From the sequence record ON711395.1: a stretch of 51,540 nt of DNA; one strand, 5' to 3'. The position numbers were made by a program, and so were the translations under genes. The notes under the pieces were generated by a model. The model had not been told where the DNA came from. It was given only the letters and a program-made list of their open reading frames with translations, and did not search any database. Of the stretch, positions 20,587 through 48,219 are shown piece after piece. Positions within the stretch are counted from its first letter, which is position 1, and each line of letters begins with the position of its first letter. This DNA is from Escherichia phage brachmannus.

Positions 20587-21201
20587 TTAATCATAGTGCG
20601 ATGAATTTATAACCAAAACAGATGATGCCGTGTAAATACCAACAGGACCAGGAGTTTGCGCAACCTGCCTAGATAAAGAATATACCCCGTTGCCATACGC
20701 GGCAGCTTGAGACTCAAATATCATGAATCCACCTAAAGACGGATTGGGCACAGAGTTTAAAGCTGTTAGTGATGGCATGATGGCGCAAGGGTATCCCAAG
20801 TTAACGTCAAAAGCGATCCCGCTTACAGATACAAGTTTTGCATCCAAAGGCTTCATCTTTCCATGATAAACCATCTCACCATTAGCATTATAAAAAGCTA
20901 TTCCGTGACTACCAGGAGGAGTAACCATGTTGCTAAAAGCATAAACAAATACCTCGCCTTGATTGTCGGACTTTTCTATCTTTATTGCGTGCTTCCCACC
21001 ATTATTAAACTGAGTAAATGCTATGTATGATTTTGATGTTAACCTTACAAAAAAGAAGCACGGTCTATTTATTGGTATAGAAGTATTAAAAACGGTTCCT
21101 GTTCTTGCTGATATTTTCCCTTTATCTATAAGGTTAACAGGAGTGAAATCTGGACTTAACCACAATGAACCGTCCGGTTTTTTTATGCTCATCCCGTACA
21201 T
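20587..21201 (-). CDS. hypothetical protein (possible tail fibre-associated)
   Basis: ORF on minus strand; ATG at 21199-21201 with GGGGG RBS-like run (track start 21213 is TTG). Confidence 0.4.
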   Translation of the reverse strand: MYGMSIKKPDGSLWLSPDFTPVNLIDKGKISARTGTVFNTSIPINRPCFFFVRLTSKSYIAFTQFNNGGKHAIKIEKSDNQGEVFVYAFSNMVTPPGSHGIAFYNANGEMVYHGKMKPLDAKLVSVSGIAFDVNLGYPCAIMPSLTALNSVPNPSLGGFMIFESQAAAYGNGVYSLSRQVAQTPGPVGIYTASSVLVINSSHYD

Positions 21202-21203
21202 TA

Positions 21204-21482
21204 TTACCCCCAAAAAGTATATATATATCTTGAGTCAGATCCAGAAAGGCCACTCCATGTAACGGTATCACCACTTACACCCAACTTTGGAGCGCCTGGA
21301 TCGCCTCCTCGCCACGAATTAATTCCAACATATATTGCTTTCAAAGACTTACCTGGCGGCCTGTTTGAGTAGGTCTTACTGCCGGATGATTGGGTAAATT
21401 TATCCAAGAAAAAAACTGGAGTTAAAAGACCAGTAACATTTCTACCTTGCTCATCATATATTGCATACCCATATTCAGCCAT
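21204..21482 (-). CDS. hypothetical protein
   Basis: 92-aa ORF with GAGGTG RBS; ends in T5G5 homopolymer region abutting downstream ORF. Confidence 0.4.
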   Translation of the reverse strand: MAEYGYAIYDEQGRNVTGLLTPVFFLDKFTQSSGSKTYSNRPPGKSLKAIYVGINSWRGGDPGAPKLGVSGDTVTWSGLSGSDSRYIYTFWG

Positions 21483-21750
21483 TTTTGCACCTCAAATCAA
21501 TGAATTTTCTTTCATCTTGCCAACGGTTGATAAATTTAACTTCTTTATTGTCAACGCTCAACCTGTATTGCTTTTGGCTGAATCTGTTTTCGCGGACAGC
21601 ATTAATTTTAACTTCATGGAATCCGTTAACAGGGAATGTTTTAACGTTAAATTTTGCCGTGCAATCGATCTCCTTGAAGTTGCCAGTAGGCGAAGAAGAA
21701 CATCCGGTCAGAGCGGCTACGGTGGCGATAACTGCGATTAATTTTTTCAT
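21475..21750 (-). CDS. lipoprotein, candidate Cor/Llp-like superinfection exclusion protein
   Basis: signal peptide with lipobox LTGC; AAGGAG RBS; small size; located next to tail fibre genes with own promoter region. Confidence 0.45.
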   Translation of the reverse strand: MKKLIAVIATVAALTGCSSSPTGNFKEIDCTAKFNVKTFPVNGFHEVKINAVRENRFSQKQYRLSVDNKEVKFINRWQDERKFIDLRCKNG

Positions 21751-21806
21751 CTTCAATACTCCTTAGTTGTTGTTGGCTGTAACTATACACGATCCGACAA
21801 GCTGAG

Positions 21807-21823
21807 TTTAGCAAAAAGTGCTA
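21807..21823 (-). promoter_or_regulatory. conserved motif variant + TATAGT upstream of lipoprotein gene (minus strand)
   Basis: minus strand reads TAGCACTTTTTGCTAAAC, TATAGT 21 bp after TTGCTA. Confidence 0.55.
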
Positions 21824-22193
21824 CTTGTTATTTTTTGTTTTCCAGTGTTATCGAATTTAAGACGGCGCAAATTTGGCGCAAATTTTAACCAACACAAGAG
21901 CAATAAACAACCAATAAAATAGATATATGCATATAAAATCAATAGTTTATTTATTTATGTATGTATATTTGTTTTTTCTTGTTATCTGTGTTTCTTGTGG
22001 TTTTGGTTGTTTGTGGTGATTTTTCTTTCTGAGTATCTGCATGTGCCATCATTCATGTGTATGTATATAATCCGGCGTATCTGAGAGAACAAGGGAACAA
22101 GAAAAATAACACATGTTAATCATTAACTTACGTGTCAGATTTGTTTTCTTGCCATCTGAGAACGTTTAGAAAACAGAAAAAACAAAACAACTA

Positions 22194-22221
22194 TTGACTA
22201 AATCAACCAAATGGCTACAAT
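22194..22221 (+). promoter_or_regulatory. sigma70-like promoter TTGACT-16-TACAAT upstream of recombination module
   Basis: near-consensus hexamers about 30 nt upstream of GAGGAG RBS of 22252 gene. Confidence 0.6.
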
Positions 22222-22251
22222 GCACACACAAAGCAACGAGGAGCATTAAAG

Positions 22252-23307
22252 ATGAGTGATTTTAACGCCTATACTAGCGAAGAAATGAGCAATGAGCTTT
22301 ATCATGATCCTAGCGCGTGGACGGCTGAATACGTCAGCGGTTCCAGCCTGGCGGAGATTTACAGCACTTGCCCGGCGTACTGGAAGTACAAACCTCGCCA
22401 GGAAACCAAAGCACTTGTTTTCGGTACGCAGTCGCATACCAATTTTGAAAGCAAGGAGTTATTCGAAAAAACATATCGCCGCGCACCGTCGCAGGATGAC
22501 TTTAAAGATCTGATCACAAGCCAAACGGCGTTAGCTGCAAAGCTGAAATCTTTTGGCCTGAAAGGTACGACGGGTAAGCAGTATCCAGAATTGCTGGAAA
22601 TGCTGTACAAGTGCGGTGAGGATCTCAATGTATGGTGGCTTATCGAAATGATGGCAGAATGCCAGGCCGCAGCGGACGGCGTGCAGTTAATCGACGCGAA
22701 AGATTATGATGCCTGTGTAGCGATGCGGCGCGTACTTGAGGCAATACCTGAGCATAATGCTTGCATGAATAGCCCAACCGCGCAGCGTGAAATGTCAATA
22801 TTCGGGATCATCAATGGCGTAAAAGTTAAAGTGCGCCTTGATCACGTTGACGTAAACAAGGATGTAAAGGCCACAATCATTAACGGTTACGACGAAAAAG
22901 GCCGACCGATTTATGAAGAAGTCATATATCCAGAAGCTGTGATTATAACTGACTATAAAACAACGGTTAGCGCAAATCCGGTTGACTTCCAGCGCCTGGC
23001 TTACAATCACGGCTATTATCTCAAAATGGCTTTGCAACATGATTTATTCAAAAAGGCGTATCCAGACGAGGAAAGACCAGTAATTGTGAGATTGCTTGCT
23101 CAAGAGAAGAAAGATCCTTACTTGCCGCTCGCATTCCGCATGAACATTGAGCAATTGAAGATTGGGCGTATCCAGTACATGAGCGTGATCAATAAGTTCA
23201 ATGTTTGCCAGAAGTTAGATGAATGGCCTTCGTATGCAAACGGGCAGCCAGAAATTGATCTTGATACTCCTGATTGGGTGCGCGCTCAATTCAGGCAGTA
23301 TCTATAA
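22252..23307 (+). CDS. PD-(D/E)XK recombination exonuclease (RecE/RecB-nuclease-like)
   Basis: 351 aa; motifs VRLDHVD and IITDYKTT and QRLAYNHGYY match RecB-family nuclease motifs; first gene after strong promoter; upstream of erf and ssb. Confidence 0.6.
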   Translation: MSDFNAYTSEEMSNELYHDPSAWTAEYVSGSSLAEIYSTCPAYWKYKPRQETKALVFGTQSHTNFESKELFEKTYRRAPSQDDFKDLITSQTALAAKLKSFGLKGTTGKQYPELLEMLYKCGEDLNVWWLIEMMAECQAAADGVQLIDAKDYDACVAMRRVLEAIPEHNACMNSPTAQREMSIFGIINGVKVKVRLDHVDVNKDVKATIINGYDEKGRPIYEEVIYPEAVIITDYKTTVSANPVDFQRLAYNHGYYLKMALQHDLFKKAYPDEERPVIVRLLAQEKKDPYLPLAFRMNIEQLKIGRIQYMSVINKFNVCQKLDEWPSYANGQPEIDLDTPDWVRAQFRQYL

Positions 23308-23368: not shown

Positions 23369-24037
<669 letters not shown>

Positions 24038-25250: not shown

Positions 25251-25529
25251 TTAAGCCCATTCTCTAATAGGCCGATCTAACTCAACCACGTATCCATTAA
25301 AAATTACGGCATCAAACTTATCATCAATGATTCGCACATTAACGAAATAGCCGTCGTTCTTTCGCGCAATCTCCTCGCCATCGTCATATCGTGCAATTAC
25401 TGTATAAGTATTGCCGATTACATCGAGCAGGGTTGCATCCTGAATGGATTCGTTTTCGTTCCATTCAATTTCTTCCAGAAAGGCGGAAAACTCCGCCTTG
25501 TCTACAAATTTCAGTGTTAAATCACGCAT
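25251..25529 (-). CDS. hypothetical protein (tail fibre-associated)
   Basis: ATG overlapping stop of tail fibre gene. Confidence 0.4.
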   Translation of the reverse strand: MRDLTLKFVDKAEFSAFLEEIEWNENESIQDATLLDVIGNTYTVIARYDDGEEIARKNDGYFVNVRIIDDKFDAVIFNGYVVELDRPIREWA

Positions 25530-27508
25530 TATACAATTTCCCCCAATTGATGATCTGTTAGTGCCTTGTGCCATATACGGAAGTTTCTAACGTGACCGAA
25601 AAGATGGCGTTCGCCTGTACTTGTTTGTCCGCCAATCCTTATAGTAGCCGTTGATACTATATATCTCCATTCCGTTTTTGTTTCGCTTGATATTCTGGCA
25701 TTACTTACACAACAAGTATTGTAATCACTCTTTACTCTCATTCCTATGATCATCTTTTTTAGTTTTGCATTCTCGTAAACCCTTCTTTTTGATCCACCTA
25801 TATCGCAATAAGGGAATCCATCATTATCGCCATCGGCAGGCCCGAAAGCAAGAATAATTGCCGCACCAGATTGATGACCTCCAGTATCGAAAACACGAGG
25901 CGCAGCATTTGGCGTTATATACCAGTTCTTATGTACCTCACAAAGAACAGTAAAAGGAAGATTATAAAGGTTATTCTTGATTGGGATTGTCACCATATCG
26001 CTTGCCCGTGTTACTGGAGTCTCTTCTGTAATAATAAACGATGAAGCGCACACACCTCCTTCAACTTGAGGGGTAGCAATATAAATATAATCACCTGCAC
26101 CAGTTCCCCCTCCATCTTTTGCTGGTGCATACTGCACCATTGCACCGATCATATTTTCTGTATCAAGCGCTTTAATTGTTGCCTCAAAGAAAATCCATTT
26201 GCTTGCTTCATCTTTAACAGCCCTTGCAGTAATACGATTTGCAGCGCCGCCAGTTTTTTCAATTGATAAATCTGTCAGATTTACGTAAGCATCACCCAAA
26301 AATGCATAAGAAGATCCATCGTAGTTTTCAAATCGTAATCGGCATCTTAAATTTGGAGTCCCACTTTGCGCCCTGCATGATATGGTTACATACTTTTCAT
26401 TTCCTGTTACATCAAAACCTCTACTGCCGGAAACGGTTACTATGTTAATCGCTGAAGTTTGTCCTACCATTTCTGGTTTTAATGTAAATTTTGCGTACTG
26501 GAATCCGAAATCATCTACACCTGATCTATCTAAGATCATATTTGATGACTTGTTCCATTTTGAAGGATTGGTACTATTTATAAGAAGGTTTGTTCTTTGC
26601 CCCTCAATGAGCAGACCATCCTTTTCAAATCTAGGTTCATCAATAGCAGCATTAGTAAGCACCCCAGACTTATTAATGTAAGTAGCGGTTGATGCTCGTT
26701 TAAACTTAACTATCTTGTCACCTGGCATCGTGATCTCATCGTCACCTATAACAATCTTTTTGTATGACGGCGAGAATCCGGTAATCATATCCAGGGAGTC
26801 ATTAAATGGTATCCACACGTCCGGCAACGGTTGCAATAAGTCCTTGTAAGGTTCTGCCGCCTGCTTTGCGTATTCCTCCGCTTGATCTCGCGCACTTTCA
26901 GCTCCTGCCTTTGCAGTGTTCGCAGCGTCACGCGCGGATTCAGCGCCAGACTTTGCTGCTTCAGCGCCAGTCTTTGCAGTGTTTGCAGCGTCGCGCGCGG
27001 ATTCAGCGGCAGCCTTTGCAGTATCAGCACCTTTCTTGCTATTCGCTGCATTTGTTGCGCTTGTCTTCGCGTTATTCTCGCTGGTTTTAGCTGCCTGCTG
27101 GCTTGCTGCTGCTGCGTCAGCATTTGTCTTTACGTCTTCCTGGATCTTCTGTAGCTTATCCCAATCAAAATCCTTGATGATCTCAATAAATCCAGCAAAC
27201 TCCGATTCCTTCCCCTGGTAATAACGCAGCGTTTCCGCTACGTCTTGCGCAAGACCGTCAACCGTTAACGAGTCATGAAGCAAGATCAGGTAATTTGTCT
27301 TCTGGACTACCGCGCCGCCAGTAGTAATTGCGCGAATGCTTGTATCGCTAATCACTTCTGTAATCACAGCAGCTTGCAAAGGTTGAGCAAGAAAGAAAAT
27401 AGTTGCGCCTGGGCGAATCAATGTTAATTGCTCACGCCATTTTGTACCGTAACCAGTTACATAACCTTGCTCGTCCATAGACGCTTGGCCTTGTCTGTAA
27501 ATCGCCAT
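25529..27508 (-). CDS. tail fibre protein
   Basis: about 660 aa; Ala/Ser/Thr-rich tandem repeats typical of fibre shafts; C-terminal lectin-like region (NFRIWHKALTDHQLGEI); ATG 27506-27508 with AGGAGG RBS. Confidence 0.7.
   Translation of the reverse strand: MAIYRQGQASMDEQGYVTGYGTKWREQLTLIRPGATIFFLAQPLQAAVITEVISDTSIRAITTGGAVVQKTNYLILLHDSLTVDGLAQDVAETLRYYQGKESEFAGFIEIIKDFDWDKLQKIQEDVKTNADAAAASQQAAKTSENNAKTSATNAANSKKGADTAKAAAESARDAANTAKTGAEAAKSGAESARDAANTAKAGAESARDQAEEYAKQAAEPYKDLLQPLPDVWIPFNDSLDMITGFSPSYKKIVIGDDEITMPGDKIVKFKRASTATYINKSGVLTNAAIDEPRFEKDGLLIEGQRTNLLINSTNPSKWNKSSNMILDRSGVDDFGFQYAKFTLKPEMVGQTSAINIVTVSGSRGFDVTGNEKYVTISCRAQSGTPNLRCRLRFENYDGSSYAFLGDAYVNLTDLSIEKTGGAANRITARAVKDEASKWIFFEATIKALDTENMIGAMVQYAPAKDGGGTGAGDYIYIATPQVEGGVCASSFIITEETPVTRASDMVTIPIKNNLYNLPFTVLCEVHKNWYITPNAAPRVFDTGGHQSGAAIILAFGPADGDNDGFPYCDIGGSKRRVYENAKLKKMIIGMRVKSDYNTCCVSNARISSETKTEWRYIVSTATIRIGGQTSTGERHLFGHVRNFRIWHKALTDHQLGEIV
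26880..27120 (-). repeat. intragenic tandem repeats in tail fibre gene (Ala-rich shaft repeats)
   Basis: repeated DNA blocks CTTTGCAGTGTT(C/T)GCAGCGTC(A/G)CGCGCGGATTCAGCG; protein AESARDAANTAK repeats. Confidence 0.6.
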
Positions 27509-27526
27509 TTGTAAAATCCTCCTAAA

Positions 27527-27546
27527 TAGCACTTTTTGCTAATGAC
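27527..27546 (+). promoter_or_regulatory. conserved motif copy TAGCACTTTTTGCTAATGAC (antisense to adjacent tail fibre gene start)
   Basis: abuts RBS of tail fibre gene on opposite strand. Confidence 0.5.
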
Positions 27547-28599: not shown

Positions 28600-29076
28600 T
28601 TAGCTATTCGTGCTGTTATCACCTTTGTAGAATCGTCCGCCTGGTTCGTAGTCTGAATTTTTGACTACGCGCAACATATCGTATTTGTCGCAACGGGTAG
28701 TAAGAGGCTTACCGTTAGAATCAAACCGCAGATCTGGACGACAAAATGATGCGCGGTATCCTTTGCATCCATTATATTTGTAGTCGTTATGCACCTTTTG
28801 TGCTCCAGCGGCTGAAATCATACCACGCTTTCGCCACTGGTTAACGACTTGCTGAGATACGCGCAGACGTCGAGCCATAGCAGGAACGCCGCCGTAATAC
28901 TCGATCAGAATGTCAAGGCGAGATTTCAGGCTTGCTTTTACCTCATCTCGCAGGATAAGAAATCCGGTTCGGTGTTTTCGTGGTTTTTTGTCTTTACCTC
29001 GTCGCGTTCCGTTGTTACCGTTAATAGTGCGCTTGTCGATCTCACCAGTAGATACTGCAATTCGTGCATCTTTCAT
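28600..29076 (-). CDS. HTH DNA-binding protein (putative transcriptional regulator)
   Basis: helix-turn-helix-like segment GVPAMARRLRVSQQVVNQWRKRG; basic N-terminus. Confidence 0.45.
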   Translation of the reverse strand: MKDARIAVSTGEIDKRTINGNNGTRRGKDKKPRKHRTGFLILRDEVKASLKSRLDILIEYYGGVPAMARRLRVSQQVVNQWRKRGMISAAGAQKVHNDYKYNGCKGYRASFCRPDLRFDSNGKPLTTRCDKYDMLRVVKNSDYEPGGRFYKGDNSTNS

Positions 29077-29088
29077 CTAGTCACCTCA

Positions 29089-29107
29089 TAGCATTTTTTG
29101 TTAAAAC
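29089..29107 (+). promoter_or_regulatory. conserved motif copy TAGCATTTTTTGTTAAAAC upstream of helicase
   Basis: TATTAT 22 bp downstream of TTGTTA. Confidence 0.55.
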
Positions 29108-29163
29108 AGTTTATTGTAATGAGTCTATTATATACTCCAAATGGCATTTTTTAAAGGTTTAAG

Positions 29164-31161
29164 ATGATTCCAAATATCGAAAAACAAATATCAGCATTAG
29201 GCGAGGCAGTAATAAAAAGCATCCAAGAGCGATTCACGGTTGGCAATATAGTGCCTTATCCTTATCAGTGCGTTGCGTATGCAGAGATCGCAAAGCGCAT
29301 GAAAAACTATGATCATCCTTTCTTTGTTAAGGCTTCTGTATCGGCTGGCAAAACATTGATGTTTGCGATGGTTGCGGCGCAATGCCGCAAAATGGGATTG
29401 AAAATGATGGTCCTTGCTCGCCAGGCTGAAATTGTTGATCAGGATTCGGAAGAGATCAGCAATCTTGGCGTGCCAAACTCAATCTATTGCGCCGGACTGA
29501 AAACAAAAAGCGCATACTTTCCGATCGTAGTAGGTTCTGAGGGCACTGTAGTAAACGGATTGTTTAAGTCGTTAGGTGATTATGTTCCGCACGTTATCGG
29601 TATTGATGAATGTCACCAGGTGGATTGGGAGGATCTCGCGGACGCGATAGAAAATAATGAATCTTACCAGCAGATGACCACTAAGAAGGATTTGCCTGTA
29701 CTGATTGGAGAAGAACAGCAATTTGATTCCAATGGCGATCCAATGTTCGGAACAGGGCGCACACAGTACACCGTAATAATCATGGAAATGATGCGTAGGT
29801 GTCGCGAGGCATACGGGCACGAATTGCGAATATTCGGCATGACTGGATCTGAGTTTCGCGGCGTGGTTACAATACTGGTTGAAGATAAGAACAAAAAGGG
29901 ATTCTGGCGTGAGCAGGTGACTAACATAGACACAAACTACTTAATCAAATTCGGTTCGGTAGTGCCAACAAACTTCGGCGACGTAGGCGACCTGGGTTAT
30001 GACCTTTCAGAGTTCGAAGCCAGTAGCGAGGATGGCGTTTCAGACTTTGACGCTAAAACATTGCGCAAGATGGAAGAAAAGATCCATCAAGACGCAACAA
30101 TGACACAGAAAATCATGGCTAAAGTCCATGAGATATGCAAAGACAGGAACGGAGTTTTAGTTACATGCGCAGGGGAAAGGCACTGCAAGGAGGCCGCCGC
30201 CGCACTGCCGCCAGGCGTTGAATACAGGATCATAACTGGCAAGACTGGAGATAATCAGCGTAAAGAGTGGCTGAGGGAGGCATACGAGGGAAAAGTAAAA
30301 TACATCTTCCAGGTACAGGCGCTTACCACTGGCGTTAACGTTCCGTTTTGGGATACTTCGGTAATACTGAGAAAAATAGGATCTCTAACATTGCTTATCC
30401 AGCTTTTGGGGCGCGGCATGCGACTGCTTAAGCAATGGCACATTGAGCAGGGATTCAAGAAAAAAGATCATCTTGTATTGGATTTTGCAGGTACTATGGA
30501 TGAGTTAGGTGATTTGTATTTCGATCCAATCCTTGAGCAAGCGCAATTCCAAAAGAGATTTACAAACGGGAAAGAGCCTAAGACTTGTCCGATATGTGGA
30601 ACGCTAAACAGCTTTTACGCTCGCCGATGTATGCACGTAGACGATAACGGGAAGCGATGTGAGCATTTTTGGACTTACAGAATTTGCGAGGATCAGGTAG
30701 ATCAGAGAACGAAAAAGATAATCAAGCGCGGTTGCGGAACAAAAAACGACGTAGTGGCGAGAGTATGCCGTTGTTGCGATATTTCTCTTGTCGATCCTAA
30801 CGAGAAGTTAAGCGGTAAGCACTACACCAAAAACGATTGGTGCAACGTTAAATCTTTCCGCGTTGATATGACGAAAAACCAGAAAGGAATTATTTTTTGC
30901 TATGAGCTTGAGGCCAACGGCGATACGTTCAAGGCATACGAAAGATTTTTCCCTGAGTCAGAAAGCAACATTTGCCGGACGATATGGAGAAAAATAGCAT
31001 TGCAGCACATACCGGATCGCAAGATTGCTGGTATGGTGGCGAGCTATAGAAATGCTCGTAAAATAATGTCATACGCTCATCACATCATGCCGCCTGTACG
31101 CGTAACGCATCGCAAAAACGGCAAAGGTGAGGATAACATTGCAAAACGGGAGTTTGTTTAA
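29164..31161 (+). CDS. SF2 DNA helicase (DExH-box) with C-terminal Cys-rich domain
   Basis: Walker A SVSAGKT, DECH box, multiple CxxC pairs in C-terminal third. Confidence 0.75.
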   Translation: MIPNIEKQISALGEAVIKSIQERFTVGNIVPYPYQCVAYAEIAKRMKNYDHPFFVKASVSAGKTLMFAMVAAQCRKMGLKMMVLARQAEIVDQDSEEISNLGVPNSIYCAGLKTKSAYFPIVVGSEGTVVNGLFKSLGDYVPHVIGIDECHQVDWEDLADAIENNESYQQMTTKKDLPVLIGEEQQFDSNGDPMFGTGRTQYTVIIMEMMRRCREAYGHELRIFGMTGSEFRGVVTILVEDKNKKGFWREQVTNIDTNYLIKFGSVVPTNFGDVGDLGYDLSEFEASSEDGVSDFDAKTLRKMEEKIHQDATMTQKIMAKVHEICKDRNGVLVTCAGERHCKEAAAALPPGVEYRIITGKTGDNQRKEWLREAYEGKVKYIFQVQALTTGVNVPFWDTSVILRKIGSLTLLIQLLGRGMRLLKQWHIEQGFKKKDHLVLDFAGTMDELGDLYFDPILEQAQFQKRFTNGKEPKTCPICGTLNSFYARRCMHVDDNGKRCEHFWTYRICEDQVDQRTKKIIKRGCGTKNDVVARVCRCCDISLVDPNEKLSGKHYTKNDWCNVKSFRVDMTKNQKGIIFCYELEANGDTFKAYERFFPESESNICRTIWRKIALQHIPDRKIAGMVASYRNARKIMSYAHHIMPPVRVTHRKNGKGEDNIAKREFV

Positions 31162-31580: not shown

Positions 31581-31596
31581 CACTTTTTGTTAAAAC
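31578..31596 (+). promoter_or_regulatory. conserved motif TAGCACTTTTTGTTAAAAC + hairpin + ATAAT
   Basis: overlaps stop TAG of VRR-NUC gene; hairpin TGGCGC...GCGCCA. Confidence 0.6.
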
Positions 31597-31660
31597 TGGC
31601 GCGATGGATTGCGCCATAATTCAATAACACGAGATGGCTTTTGATAGCGGAGAAATGAAA

Positions 31661-32386
31661 ATGGCTAAAGATATTTTAGATAAAGACACCCATGACGCAT
31701 TTGTTAGCTTTGAGCAGTTGGAGAGAGAAACGTTTATAGGAAATGCTCTTGCAACTGGAGGCCATTACCAAGCAGTAAAGCCAAATCAATATTATAAGGT
31801 AAGCGGCAACCGATACGCTGGAAGCACTACGCCGGACGTTGTGCGCGATATGTGGAGCACACCTCAAGAGATCGTGGAGTGGATGGAATCAGAATTTGGC
31901 GAATACGATCTCGACGCGGCAGCAAGCCAGGAAAACGCAGTTTGCGAGAAGTTCTATAGCAAGAAAACAAACTGCTTAAAGCGTTGGTGGGGTAGCAACA
32001 AGCACGTATGGCTTAACCCGCCGTACAGCAACCCAACTCCATTTATCAAGAAAGCAATTGAGCAAATGGAGCACAACAACCAAATTGATGTTTTGTTGCC
32101 ATCCGACAACTCTACAGCATGGTTTTATGAGGCGCAGAAAAACGCGGCTGAAATCATCTGGATCACTGGCGAGGTTTACGAAGAGGGGGGAGTGGAATAT
32201 TCCCGCACCGGAAGAATCGCCTTTGTGTCTGGATTGACTGGCGAGCCTGTACAGGGCAACAATAAGGGAAGCGTGATTTTTGTCATGCGCAAACTTAAAG
32301 AAGGCGAGGAGCAGAAAACGCGATACGTTAAGATCAGCGATATTTGCCCCTCTGTAACCGAACGCCGCGCGCGCAAACGGAGCTAA
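31661..32386 (+). CDS. dam: DNA N6-adenine methyltransferase (phage Dam-type)
   Basis: LNPPYSN catalytic motif; ATG 31661 with GGAG RBS (track start 31634 alternative). Confidence 0.8.
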   Translation: MAKDILDKDTHDAFVSFEQLERETFIGNALATGGHYQAVKPNQYYKVSGNRYAGSTTPDVVRDMWSTPQEIVEWMESEFGEYDLDAAASQENAVCEKFYSKKTNCLKRWWGSNKHVWLNPPYSNPTPFIKKAIEQMEHNNQIDVLLPSDNSTAWFYEAQKNAAEIIWITGEVYEEGGVEYSRTGRIAFVSGLTGEPVQGNNKGSVIFVMRKLKEGEEQKTRYVKISDICPSVTERRARKRS

Positions 32387-32648: not shown

Positions 32649-32667
32649 TAGCACTTTTTGTTAAAAC
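32649..32667 (+). promoter_or_regulatory. conserved motif + hairpin + CATAAT
   Basis: after TAATAG; downstream leader TCATCGAAACGA...GAGGAAA shared with the 43503 copy. Confidence 0.6.
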
Positions 32668-32723
32668 GCCCGGCATTTTGTCGGGCATAATTATTTCATC
32701 GAAACGAACGTGAGGAAATGAAA

Positions 32724-38878: not shown

Positions 38879-38932
38879 GATTAGATCTCCTTTGTTTGTT
38901 CGATGTGATTATGCCAGGTTTTTACACCTGGC

Positions 38933-38950
38933 TTTTAACAAAAAGTGCTA
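38933..38950 (-). promoter_or_regulatory. conserved motif + hairpin GCCAGGTG...CCTGGC + CATAAT, minus strand
   Basis: overlaps stop of methyltransferase-like gene; upstream of 38878 start. Confidence 0.6.
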
Positions 38951-42173: not shown

Positions 42174-42713
42174 TTTGACGGTTAGCACCAGGATTGTGAT
42201 CGAAATAATCAAAAGTAATCATTCGTAATCAAATCACGTCAAAATGATGATTGCCTTTGCAAATTTGATGAGAAAAGTAATCACGTTTAATCATTGGTTG
42301 CAGGGGAGATAGTGAAACCTTCCCCTCTTGCCTCACTTTTCCGCCCGGCTGTCAGTGGTTGTTATGTTCCGTTCCCGCCTGTTCTTTTGTTGACCTTCCG
42401 CAAAATACGATAACAAAAAATAACAAACAGTACCTATATAATACATTGAAAAATAAGTATTATTTATTTATATGTATCTATATATTCTCTTTTGTTATCT
42501 TGGTTATTGTGGTATTTGGTGGGGTATATAGTTTTTGTGTATCTGTATGTGTGTATGGGTATGTAGGGGGCATATATATCTATATGGCACTTTCCGCGAG
42601 AAAACTTCGATAACAGGCAATGATAACATTGATTTATAAGGAAAAATAACGCCCATATTGTTATTGTGCCACCATATAAAATTGATAAAACACGCGGGAA
42701 CAAGAAAAAACAG

Positions 42714-42742
42714 TTGACACATTAAATAGCATTATTGATAAT
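42714..42742 (+). promoter_or_regulatory. sigma70-like promoter TTGACA-17-GATAAT upstream of plus-strand early array
   Basis: consensus -35 and good -10 about 30 nt upstream of AGGAGG RBS of 42772 gene. Confidence 0.6.
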
Positions 42743-42771
42743 GCCGACACCTAACAACCAGGAGGTAGAAA

Positions 42772-43505: not shown

Positions 43506-43521
43506 CACTTTTTGTTAAAAC
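43503..43521 (+). promoter_or_regulatory. conserved motif + hairpin GCCAGGC-GCAAA-GCCTGGC + ATAAT
   Basis: overlaps stop TAG of lipoprotein gene. Confidence 0.6.
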
Positions 43522-43577
43522 GCCAGGCGCAAAGCCTGGCATAATAGCCTCATCGAAACGAGATTGAGGAAACAAAA

Positions 43578-48149: not shown

Positions 48150-48165
48150 CACGAATTGCTAAACG
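48147..48165 (+). promoter_or_regulatory. conserved motif variant TAGCACGAATTGCTAAACG + TATAAT at 22 bp
   Basis: overlaps stop TAG of kinase gene. Confidence 0.55.
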
Positions 48166-48219
48166 CGGGGCGCAATGCCTCGCTATAATGCAAACACCAA
48201 TCAACGAGAGGAAATCACA

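What the first reader, a model, noticed from the sequence alone, without database searches (positions are those of the whole stretch)
21757..22251. AT-rich divergent control region 1 with repeated TATCTG words and a strong outward promoter
About 500 bp of non-coding, TG/TA-rich DNA lies between the minus-strand lipoprotein gene and the plus-strand recombination module. It contains repeated words (GAGTATCTGCATG, GCGTATCTGAGAGAAC, GCCATCTGAGAACG), the block GGGAACAAGAAAAA and a near-consensus promoter TTGACT-16-TACAAT at 22194-22221. Such a region is a candidate early promoter hub, operator array, replication origin or packaging-related site.
Basis: seen in the sequence. Interest (0 to 1): 0.6.

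Follow-up and report, generated by a model that had tools for sequence, protein, structure and literature searches.

The report
Conserved promoter hub, possible replication origin
This 500-base gene-free stretch of a T1-like coliphage holds two outward-facing promoters around a strongly conserved, easily melted DNA core that exists in two related copies per genome and is the best sequence candidate so far for the still-unmapped replication origin of this phage family.

Summary
The window is a complete Warwickvirus genome (T1-like, Drexlerviridae).

The promoter is the only sigma-70 site conserved in position across genera. It was already predicted in phages TLS and T1.

TATCTG is not the conserved unit. 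Only one of its three copies survives in other genera. The recurrent words are 10-bp-phased TGTT(A/T)TC and GGCGCAAAT.

New here:
- The region is under purifying selection: 68-74% identity against 54% at recE third codon positions.
- 353 bp are paralogous to 42404-42764.
- The two AT cores are the two least stable duplex segments of the genome. The same holds in phage T1.
- Spacings between landmarks are held within ±2 bp, or +11 bp in one phage, despite 13-20 nt of indels.
- The leftward promoter uses the family's unexplained 21-nt repeat. That repeat matches the MarA/SoxS/Rob marbox consensus exactly, in class II geometry.

Best reading: a divergent promoter hub wrapped around one of two candidate replication origins. 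The origin role is inferred, not shown. A pac site, a small RNA and small genes are unlikely.

The parts
21751..21781 (-). 5' untranslated leader and RBS (AAGGAG, 21765-21760) of the lipoprotein gene. The predicted transcription start is near 21775.
   Evidence: Sequence. Start codon ATG 21750 agrees with the tonijn annotation. The transcription start is inferred from the -10 position.
21782..21787 (-). -10 hexamer TATAGT of the leftward promoter.
   Evidence: ACTATACACGATC is invariant in 9 relatives. It lies 21 nt downstream of the repeat palindrome. 14 of 18 repeat copies have such a hexamer 21-22 nt downstream.
21806..21826 (-). One copy of the family-wide 21-nt repeat. GCACTTTTTGCTAAA (21807-21821) is an exact marbox consensus. 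It also reads as the palindrome TAGCA-N5-TGCTA (21809-21823), centred about -41.
   Evidence: Repeat described in TLS. Marbox consensus from PMC12052159. Geometry compared with micF.
21826..21852 (+). First triplet of 10-bp-phased TGTT words (TGTTATT 21826, TGTTTTC 21836, TGTTATC 21846).
   Evidence: The triplet is conserved in all aligned genera and in Tlsvirus and Henuseptimavirus.
21864..21885 (+). Tandem GGCGCAAATTT x2.
   Evidence: D6. Conservation 0.85-0.88. A third copy of the word lies right of the core (22074-22082). That copy reads GGCGCAAAT in other genera.
21904..21983 (.). AT-rich core (16% GC), a candidate DNA-unwinding element. It contains TTATTTATTTAT (21947-21958) and the palindrome TATATGCATATA (21923-21934).
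   Evidence: Second least stable 40, 80 and 150-bp duplex segment of the genome. The least stable is its paralogue at 42410-42489. The same ranking holds in T1. The core is retained in every relative that matched.
21937..21949 (+). AATCAATAGTTTA, a strict match to the IHF consensus WATCAANNNNTTR.
   Evidence: One of only 6 strict matches in the genome. Kept in Hanrivervirus but not in Jahat or PaulSarasin.
21970..21995 (+). Second triplet of phased TGTT words (21970, 21980, 21989), including TTGTTATCTG.
   Evidence: Best conserved part of the interior, 0.88-0.91. TTGTTATCT is shared exactly with the paralogue. TGTTAT/ATAACA is the top enriched word shared by both regions, with 10 of 57 genome copies.
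21996..22030 (+). T/G-rich spacer. Its sequence and local length vary, but its total length is compensated.
   Evidence: Conservation 0.51-0.66. Indels of -2, -4 and +5 cancel to a net of ±1.
22031..22046 (+). GAGTATCTGCATGTG block.
   Evidence: Shared with the paralogue as GTGTATCTGTATGTG. Reads GTGATTATGCATGTG in other genera.
22072..22112 (+). CCGGCG word followed by inverted AACA words (GAGAACA, GGGAACA, AATAACA), including GGGAACAAGAAAAA.
   Evidence: CCGGCG lies 122-124 bp from the -35 in all 9 relatives. The block is conserved in the paralogue and across genera.
22114..22143 (.). Conserved block holding the palindrome GTTAATCATTAAC (22115-22127) and the IHF-like AATCATTAACTTA.
   Evidence: Conservation 0.86-0.87. 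Other genera have a perfect IHF consensus here, TATCAATCACTTA.
22154..22192 (+). Promoter-proximal copy of the ATCTGAGAAC...A-tract block. The A-rich stretch resembles an UP element.
   Evidence: ATCTGAGA occurs only twice in the genome, at 22079 and 22154. The A-tract is conserved, and it is paralleled by GGGAACAAGAAAAAACAG upstream of the R2 promoter.
22194..22221 (+). Sigma-70 promoter TTGACT-16-TACAAT for recE-erf-ssb. Predicted start near 22228, RBS GAGGAG at 22238-22243, ATG at 22252.
   Evidence: one of 8 sites scoring at least 12.5 bits in the genome. Predicted as P51 in TLS and in the T1 record.
42404..42764 (+). Paralogous module (R2) upstream of the first gene of the rightward small-gene cluster, ending in TTGACA-17-GATAAT (42714-42742).

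Best explanation
The region is a composite, non-transcribed control module of a T1-like phage.

**Shown by sequence and comparison**
- At its right edge sits a strong host-type (sigma-70) promoter with an A-rich upstream tract. It drives the recombination operon recE-erf-ssb.
- At its left edge sits a promoter of the family's 21-nt-repeat type. It has a -10 hexamer and no -35. An exact marbox, which also reads as a palindrome, is centred near -41. This promoter drives the lipoprotein genes.
- The ~330 bp between them carry no conserved promoter, ORF or RNA motif, yet they are conserved in sequence and, more strikingly, in length.
- The interior is laid out as phased TGTT(A/T)TC triplets and GGCGCAAAT words on both sides of the second most easily melted segment of the genome.
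- A paralogous copy of the module lies 20 kb away.

**Inferred**
- The interior is a platform on which proteins assemble at fixed distance and helical phase to open the AT core.
- That would make it one of two replication origins, or an origin plus a cis-acting partner.
- Divergent transcription from the flanking promoters would add negative supercoiling that favours melting.
- The protein that reads the words is unknown. Candidates are the phage DUF3987 helicase and the small HTH proteins encoded next to it.
For: **Purifying selection**
- Identity to other genera is 68-74% in the region.
- recE third codon positions are only 54% identical.

**Paralogy**
- 21891-22243 aligns with 42404-42764 with E 2e-17.
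- The score has z = 7.4 even against block-wise shuffles.
- T1's two regions are also paralogous in their cores: 75% over 91 columns.

**Duplex stability**
- The two cores rank first and second as the least stable segments in this genome.
- They rank the same way in T1, with z of 5.3-6.3.

**Spacing**
- Repeat centre to TTGTTATCT is 163-166 bp.
- CCGGCG to -35 is 122-124 bp.
- Repeat centre to -35 is 377-382 bp in 8 phages. In the ninth it is +11 bp, about one helical turn.
- This holds despite 5-9 indel blocks totalling 13-20 nt.
- The same constancy is seen in R2: 548 bp here against 545 bp in phage vojen.
- Conserved blocks separated by spacers of fixed length but free sequence is the classic pattern of enterobacterial oriC. 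This comparison is from my own knowledge of Zyskind et al. 1983.

**Words**
- TGTTAT/ATAACA is the top word enriched in both regions.
- The words are phased at 10 bp.
- T1 carries a different word, TGTAAC, at the same position. That fits a phage-specific reader.

**Strand composition**
- Composition switches at every core from A/C-rich to T/G-rich, above the 99.4th percentile genome-wide.
- For A versus T this polarity is opposite to the gene-orientation skew.

**Absence of transcription signals inside**
- Only the outward promoter is conserved in position.
- There is no Rfam match and no conserved ORF.

**Replication genes**
- The phage has its own primase and a DUF3987 helicase.
- The origin of T1-like phages is unmapped.
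Against: - There is no experimental evidence of any kind.
- There are no DnaA boxes and no GATC cluster.
- Single-strand hairpin potential is not significant (z = -1.6).
- Predicted curvature in this region is ordinary.
- The words are short and AT-rich, so part of their enrichment is compositional.
- T1-like phages carry RecE/Erf and may start much of their replication by recombination, without a fixed origin.
- AT-rich, length-constrained upstream regions also occur at highly regulated promoters.
- The TLS authors looked for iterons and reported none.
- A Keio screen of the T1-like phage LL5 found no need for IHF, Fis or HU. The IHF-like sites are therefore not essential on their own.
Confidence: 0.45

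Rival explanations
1. The region is purely transcriptional. The interior would be an enhancer, operator or insulator array that tunes or later shuts off the two flanking promoters. It would work by binding a phage regulator at the TGTT and GGCGCAAAT words and looping the DNA, with no role in replication.
For: - AACA/TGTT words run right up to the -35 of both paralogous promoters, with 10-bp phasing at 42689, 42699 and 42709.
- Fixed spacing and helical phase between the two promoters is what DNA looping requires.
- The phage encodes several small HTH proteins.
- These two promoters are among the few consensus sigma-70 sites in the genome. They are therefore presumably the early promoters that must be switched off.
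Against: - The AT core lies 215-290 bp from the -35 and 130-210 bp from the leftward start. That is too far for an UP element.
- This reading gives no reason why regulation would need the two least stable segments of the genome, conserved as far as T1.
- The third divergent promoter region, at 29077-29163, has no such module.
Confidence: 0.3
2. Only the two promoters are functional. The interior would be conserved because of low divergence, recent exchange between phages or AT-rich mutational bias.
For: - Flanking genes on the left are mosaic among relatives: cor in some, other lipoprotein genes in others. Recombination therefore happens near here.
- The TG tract is poorly conserved.
Against: - Neutral sites in the adjacent recE gene are only 54% identical, against about 74% in the region.
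- Compensating indels keep the spacings constant.
- The architecture persists at 67% identity in Tlsvirus, and in Henuseptimavirus.
- The core properties persist in T1.
Confidence: 0.08
3. The region is a packaging (pac) or recombination site recognised by terminase or by the RecE/Erf system.
For: - The paralogous region R2 lies where the T1 and TLS records begin. Both records were opened at pac.
- The region sits directly upstream of the recombination genes.
Against: - T1 and TLS pac map into the roughly 225-bp segment of R2 that this region lacks. That segment holds a GTAATCA word array and a GC-rich hairpin.
- Headful phages are expected to use one pac site.
- There are no Chi sites in the genome.
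Confidence: 0.07
4. The interior encodes small hydrophobic peptides or a small RNA.
For: - Several annotators-45-aa ORFs here.
- T1 has an annotated 46-aa ORF at the equivalent place.
- T-rich DNA translates into membrane-like peptides.
Against: - No ORF keeps its frame, start and stop across genera. Some are lost even at 96% identity.
- The T1 ORF has no counterpart here.
- There is no Shine-Dalgarno sequence.
- There is no conserved internal promoter and no Rfam hit.
- Indel lengths are not multiples of three.
Confidence: 0.05

Closest known systems
Predicted promoter P51 of phage TLS and the promoter annotated at 30319-30346 in the T1 GenBank record AY216660
   Same: - Same position, directly upstream of the exonuclease VIII gene.
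- Same -35 hexamer, TTGACT.
- Same role as one of very few sigma-70-like intergenic promoters.
   Different: - Those are in-silico predictions too. None has been mapped.
- The upstream 330-bp module and its paralogue are not described in the TLS paper.
Origins built from repeated words flanking an AT-rich unwinding element, present as two cis sites per genome: SPP1 oriL/oriR and P4 ori/crr (from my own knowledge, not checked here)
   Same: - Two related non-coding sites kilobases apart.
- Short words in phased arrays on both sides of an AT-rich core.
[quoted passage not shown]
   Different: - No initiator is identified.
- No binding or initiation is shown.
- The words (TGTTATC, GGCGCAAAT) are unrelated to those of SPP1 or P4.
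Enterobacterial oriC (from my own knowledge: Zyskind et al. 1983; Woelker and Messer 1993)
   Same: - Conserved blocks are separated by spacers of conserved length but free sequence.
- A one-turn length change is tolerated.
- An AT-rich unwinding element and an IHF-type site are present.
- Flanking outward transcription is present.
   Different: There are no DnaA boxes and no GATC clustering.
Class II MarA/SoxS/Rob (marbox) promoters such as micF
   Same: - The leftward promoter's repeat matches gcannwwntgnnaaa exactly.
- It is in forward orientation and overlaps the -35 position.
- GCAC is predicted at about -46 to -43. In most other copies it is at -47 to -44, where Rob contacts G-47 and A-45 in micF.
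   Different: - No binding or dependence has been tested.
- The phage has no detectable MarA-family gene.
- A Keio screen of a related phage did not pick up rob, marA or soxS.
- The site also reads as a palindrome, which would suit a dimeric phage HTH protein.
Promoter-linked origins of T7 and T4 (from my own knowledge)
   Same: A promoter lies next to an AT-rich unwinding region.
   Different: Here both promoters point away from the AT core. An R-loop primer made by read-through is therefore not expected.

Membership tests
Sigma-70 promoter | -35 and -10 hexamers close to TTGACA/TATAAT with a 16-18 bp spacer | tested here: met
   TTGACT-16-TACAAT matches 10 of 12 positions and scores 13.7 bits, one of 8 sites of at least 12.5 bits in the genome.
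Sigma-70 promoter | Positional conservation in relatives | tested here: met
   It is the only promoter-like site at the same alignment column in all R1 and R2 sequences. TTGACTAAA and the A and T of the -10 are invariant.
Sigma-70 promoter | Transcription starts there | not testable with these tools
   I found no transcription-start data for any T1-like phage.
Class II marbox (MarA/SoxS/Rob) promoter | Match to the marbox consensus gcannwwntgnnaaa | tested here: met
   There is an exact match at 21807-21821 on the minus strand. The genome has 18 exact matches against 1.58±1.37 in shuffles. T1 has 20 against 0.87.
Class II marbox (MarA/SoxS/Rob) promoter | Forward orientation, overlapping the -35, centred between -36 and -55, with a -10 hexamer downstream | tested here: met
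   A -10-like hexamer lies 21-22 nt after the site in 14 of 18 copies. The centre falls at about -41 to -42. The transcription starts are inferred, not measured.
Class II marbox (MarA/SoxS/Rob) promoter | Binding of, and activation by, MarA, SoxS or Rob | not testable with these tools
   The phage has no MarA-family homologue. The Keio screen of LL5 gave no rob, marA or soxS hit.
Replication origin with repeated words and an unwinding element | AT-rich segment of exceptionally low duplex stability | tested here: met
   The segment ranks second in the genome, and its paralogue ranks first. The same holds in T1.
Replication origin with repeated words and an unwinding element | Arrays of a repeated word, helically phased, next to the AT-rich segment | tested here: inconclusive
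   TGTT triplets are spaced at 10 bp on both sides of the core. TGTTAT is enriched at 10 of 57 genome copies. GGCGCAAAT occurs on both sides. The words are short, degenerate and AT-rich.
Replication origin with repeated words and an unwinding element | An initiator protein binds the words and replication starts there | not testable with these tools
   The candidates are the DUF3987 helicase and small HTH proteins. No solved homologue was found by sequence.
oriC-type origin | DnaA boxes and GATC clustering | tested here: not met
   No TTATCCACA is present, and no relaxed DnaA box lies in the region. Only one of the genome's 311 GATC sites is here.
pac site of headful phages | Coincides with the mapped packaging start of relatives | tested here: not met
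   The T1 and TLS records start in the segment specific to the other region.
Known RNA family | Match to an Rfam covariance model | tested here: not met
   No match with E up to 1.
Small protein-coding gene | An ORF conserved in frame and extent in relatives | tested here: not met

The most novel reading that the evidence does not exclude
T1-like phages would replicate from two paralogous, length-constrained origins, this region and 42404-42713. A phage protein would recognise each through lineage-specific phased words (TGTTATC here, TGTAAC in T1). Each would be bordered by a promoter of the family's 21-nt-repeat class. That class would in fact be a set of 18-20 consensus marboxes through which the phage borrows the host stress regulators Rob, MarA and SoxS for most of its transcription.
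Probability: 0.2. Interest if true: 0.75.

Novelty: new member of a known kind. Interest (0 to 1): 0.55.

Why it matters
Phage T1 is one of the seven classic T phages, yet neither its origin of replication nor its transcription programme has been mapped. The 2024 TLS paper lists the function of the 21-nt repeats as an open question and reports no iterons anywhere in the genome.

This analysis gives both questions concrete, testable coordinates:
- Two 80-bp cores, flanked by phased words, are origin candidates.
- A precise promoter model is proposed for the repeats: a marbox at about -42 plus a -10 hexamer.

If the marbox reading holds, gene expression in a whole family of virulent enteric phages would be wired to the host's antibiotic and oxidative-stress regulators. 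That would bear on phage therapy given together with antibiotics or in bile-rich environments.

Tried and rejected
- **TATCTG as the operator word.** Rejected. Only one of its three copies is conserved.
- **Intrinsic curvature.** A wedge model gave a maximum at the 92nd percentile and a mean equal to the genome mean for this region. The GTAATCA array in the other region is strongly curved, at the 99.95th percentile.
- **Cruciform or long hairpin across the core.** z = -1.6, and 18 of 200 shuffles fold as well.
- **DnaA boxes, Chi sites and GATC clusters.** None found.
- **Second promoter GTGCCA-17-TATAAT at 22043-22071.** Present only in this genus.
- **Small ORFs.** Not conserved.
- **Rfam.** Nothing.
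- **Degenerate marboxes inside the interior.** Nothing convincing.
- **Literature.** I searched for transcription-start, RNA-seq or origin data on T1-like phages and found nothing usable beyond the TLS paper. The daunorubicin preprint has RNA-seq only for a T5-like phage.
- **Solved structure related to the DUF3987 helicase.** None found by sequence. I did not go on to structure prediction.

Full report
**Identity of the window**

The window is a complete, roughly 51.5-kb genome of a T1-like siphophage. It belongs to Drexlerviridae, Tempevirinae, genus Warwickvirus, and is 97% identical to phage tonijn around the finding.

The finding lies between two genes:
- On the left is a minus-strand lipoprotein gene with the lipobox LTGC. 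It most likely starts at ATG 21750.
- On the right is the plus-strand operon recE (22252), erf and ssb.

**Checking the observation**

Every word, the GGGAACAAGAAAAA block and the promoter TTGACT-16-TACAAT (22194-22221) are at the stated coordinates.

- TATCTG occurs three times, against 0.1 expected. However, 99% of shuffles contain some 6-mer three times, so this is weak.
- General self-repetition is significant: 18 repeated 8-mers against 5.3±2.9.
- In an alignment of nine relatives from four genera, only the TATCTG inside TTGTTATCTG is kept.
- The word GCGTATCTGAGAGAAC corresponds to GCGCAAATGGAGGAAC elsewhere. It is therefore a diverged copy of the tandem GGCGCAAATTT x2 at 21864-21885.

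**The region is constrained**

- Identity to other genera is 68-74% across the full 495 bp.
- Third codon positions of the adjacent recE gene are only 54% identical.
- Conservation peaks at six places:
  - the leftward promoter;
  - the GGCGCAAATTT tandem;
  - the right half of the AT core together with the adjacent TGTT words (0.88-0.91);
  - a block at 22114-22143;
  - the A-tract;
  - the rightward promoter (0.90-0.94).
- Conservation is lowest in the T/G-rich tract at 22002-22040.

**The two promoters**

*Rightward promoter*
- A position-weight scan of all R1 and R2 sequences finds only one promoter-like site at the same alignment column everywhere. That site is the rightward promoter.
- It is one of eight sites scoring at least 12.5 bits in the genome.
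- It corresponds to P51, one of only three intergenic sigma-70 promoters predicted in TLS.
- It also corresponds to a promoter annotated in the T1 record.

*Leftward promoter*
- The left edge holds one copy of the family's 21-nt repeat, aaATAGCACnnnTTGnTAAAA. The TLS paper calls its function unknown.
- In 14 of 18 copies a -10-like hexamer (CATAAT, TATAAT, TATAGT and similar) lies 21-22 nt after the repeat, usually with G at -14.
- No -35 hexamer is present.
- The repeat is therefore centred at about -41 to -42.
- Here the hexamer is TATAGT (21787-21782, minus strand) and the predicted start is near 21775.

**The repeat is a marbox**

- The repeat matches the published MarA/SoxS/Rob consensus gcannwwntgnnaaa without mismatch.
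- There are 18 exact matches in the window against 1.58±1.37 in shuffles.
- There are 20 in T1 against 0.87.
- Its orientation and position fit class II marbox promoters, which have a forward site overlapping the -35.
- GCAC is predicted at -47 to -44. Rob contacts G-47 and A-45 in the micF complex.
- Neither this phage nor T1 encodes a detectable MarA-family protein.
- Against an essential dependence on the host regulators, a Keio screen of the T1-like phage LL5 did not find rob, marA or soxS. Redundancy among the three could hide this.
- The site is also a palindrome, TAGCA-N5-TGCTA, so a dimeric phage HTH protein could read it. One candidate is the Cro/YdaS-like protein at 28600-29076.

**The interior (about 21830-22190)**

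- It has no conserved promoter.
- It has no Rfam match.
- It has no ORF conserved in frame. Some ORFs vanish even at 96% identity. The small ORF annotated in T1 has no counterpart here.
- Both flanking operons are transcribed away from it. It is therefore most likely a DNA element rather than a gene.

**A paralogous copy exists**

- 21891-22243 aligns in the same order with 42404-42764, at 62% identity over 370 columns and E 2e-17.
- The local score is 54, against 13.0±1.7 for global shuffles and 26.5±3.7 for shuffles within 40-nt blocks.
- The shared blocks include:
  - TTATTTATTTAT;
  - TTGTTATCT;
  - GTATCTGNATGTG;
  - ATAACA words;
  - the A-tract;
  - the -35 and -10 hexamers.
- The other region (R2) has about 225 extra bases. 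They hold a GTAATCA word array, which is strongly curved, and a GC-rich hairpin.
- The T1 and TLS records, opened at pac, start in that part. A pac role for the present region is therefore unlikely.

**Physical properties**

- The cores of R2 (42410-42489) and R1 (21904-21983) are the first and second least stable duplex segments of the genome at windows of 40, 80 and 150 bp, with z of 3.6-4.6.
- In T1 the primary sequence is not alignable by BLAST beyond the core. Even so, the two positionally equivalent regions are again first and second, with z of 5.3-6.3.
- All eight TATATATA octamers of the T1 genome lie in those two regions.
- The T1 cores are paralogous to each other.
- At all four cores the plus strand switches from A/C-rich to T/G-rich, above the 99.4th percentile.
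- For A versus T this is opposite to the skew that follows gene orientation in this genome.

**Repeated words**

- TGTTAT/ATAACA is the most enriched 6-mer shared by both interiors: 10 of 57 genome copies in 1.4% of the genome.
- TGTT words form 10-bp-phased triplets on both sides of the core, at 21826/21836/21846 and 21970/21980/21989. Inverted copies lie further right.
- In the R2 of phage vojen the array is even clearer.
- The same layout holds in Tlsvirus and Henuseptimavirus. There a CGCAAAT-type word also flanks the core on both sides.
- T1 carries TGTAAC words at the corresponding places.

**Spacing is held constant**

- Repeat centre to TTGTTATCT is 163-166 bp in all relatives.
- CCGGCG to -35 is 122-124 bp.
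- Repeat centre to -35 is 377-382 bp in eight phages and 389 bp in Jahat, which is +11 bp or about one helical turn.
- This holds although 5-9 indel blocks totalling 13-20 nt separate the sequences. Their net is ±1 in two independent lineages.
- R2 shows the same constancy: 548 bp here against 545 bp in vojen, at 67% identity.
- Such constancy points to proteins that must sit at fixed distance and phase.

**Interpretation**

*Shown*
- Two outward promoters flank the region.
- A conserved, duplicated, length-constrained, untranscribed interior is built around the most meltable DNA in the genome.

*Inferred*
- The interior is one of two replication origins, or an origin with a cis partner.
- The flanking divergent transcription would help to unwind it.

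*Support*
- The layout resembles origins made of repeated words around an unwinding element, and the conserved-block, fixed-spacer pattern of oriC. Both comparisons rest on my own knowledge.
- The phage has its own primase and a DUF3987 helicase.
- No origin is known for this family.

*Against*
- There are no DnaA boxes or GATC clusters.
- Hairpin potential and curvature are unremarkable.
- The words are short.
- Replication might instead be driven by recombination.

The main rival is a purely transcriptional looping or operator array.

**Novelty**

- The rightward promoter is already predicted in relatives.
- I did not find the paired modules, their physical properties or the spacing constraint described in the searchable literature.
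- I did not find the marbox identity of the 21-nt repeats described either.
- If the interior is an origin, it would be a new member of a known kind.

Noticed in passing
window 2121, 6743, 10494, 16370, 21807, 29091, 31580, 32651, 38260, 38934, 40852, 42157, 43505, 43968, 45185, 46647, 48149, 49443 (start of each 15-nt match): The family's 21-nt intergenic repeat is an exact marbox (MarA/SoxS/Rob site). There are 18 copies against 1.6 expected, and 20 in T1. Most sit 21-22 nt upstream of a -10-like hexamer, in class II geometry. The 2024 TLS paper calls the repeat's function unknown. The phage has no detectable MarA-family gene.
   Followed up: partly
window 31595-31620, 32666-32690, 38908-38933, 43520-43545, 48164-48185: In many repeat-type promoters the 22-nt spacer between the marbox and the -10 hexamer is itself a GC-rich inverted repeat, for example GCCAGGC-GCAAA-GCCTGGC. 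Read on the opposite strand, the hairpin is followed by GTTTTAAC. It could therefore act as a terminator for antisense transcription.
   Followed up: no
window 42178-42403: The paralogous region carries about 225 extra bases. They hold five GTAATCA/TAATCA words (42206-42295), the most curved DNA of that area (99.95th percentile), a GC-rich hairpin GGGGAGATAGTGAAACCTTCCCC and TTCCGC words. The T1 and TLS records, opened at pac, begin in the equivalent segment. This is the likely pac side.
   Followed up: partly
phage records MG065636-MG065687 (for example hits H57, H63, H64): Eighteen unannotated records named 'Campylobacter phage', 47-50 kb long, match this coliphage intergenic region at 72-74% over its full length. 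They look like Hanrivervirus-type T1-like genomes. Mislabelling or contamination seems likely.
   Followed up: no
window 20587-21756 and loci L005-L012: The gene cassette left of the region differs among relatives: cor superinfection-exclusion gene, other lipoprotein genes, or none annotated. The region itself and recE stay in place. The region marks a mosaic boundary.
   Followed up: partly
window 23982-24011: The best sigma-70 match in the genome (TTGACA-18-TAAAAT, 15.2 bits) lies inside the 3' end of erf, just upstream of ssb. The T1 record annotates a promoter at the equivalent place (32109-32138).
   Followed up: no
window 26897-27022: There is a tandem 63-nt repeat (two copies, 86% identical) inside the 667-aa minus-strand ORF 25529-27532.
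   Followed up: no
whole window: GATC occurs 311 times, against roughly 196 expected from base composition by my own arithmetic. There are no Chi sites (GCTGGTGG) on either strand. T1 encodes a Dam methylase.
   Followed up: no
L016 (T1) 29918-29959 and 30061-30101: In T1 a roughly 42-bp unit containing TGTAACAG words is repeated directly on both sides of the AT core of the equivalent region (76% identity). The updated T1 record also annotates a 46-aa ORF (30110-30250) there, which has no counterpart in the window.
   Followed up: partly
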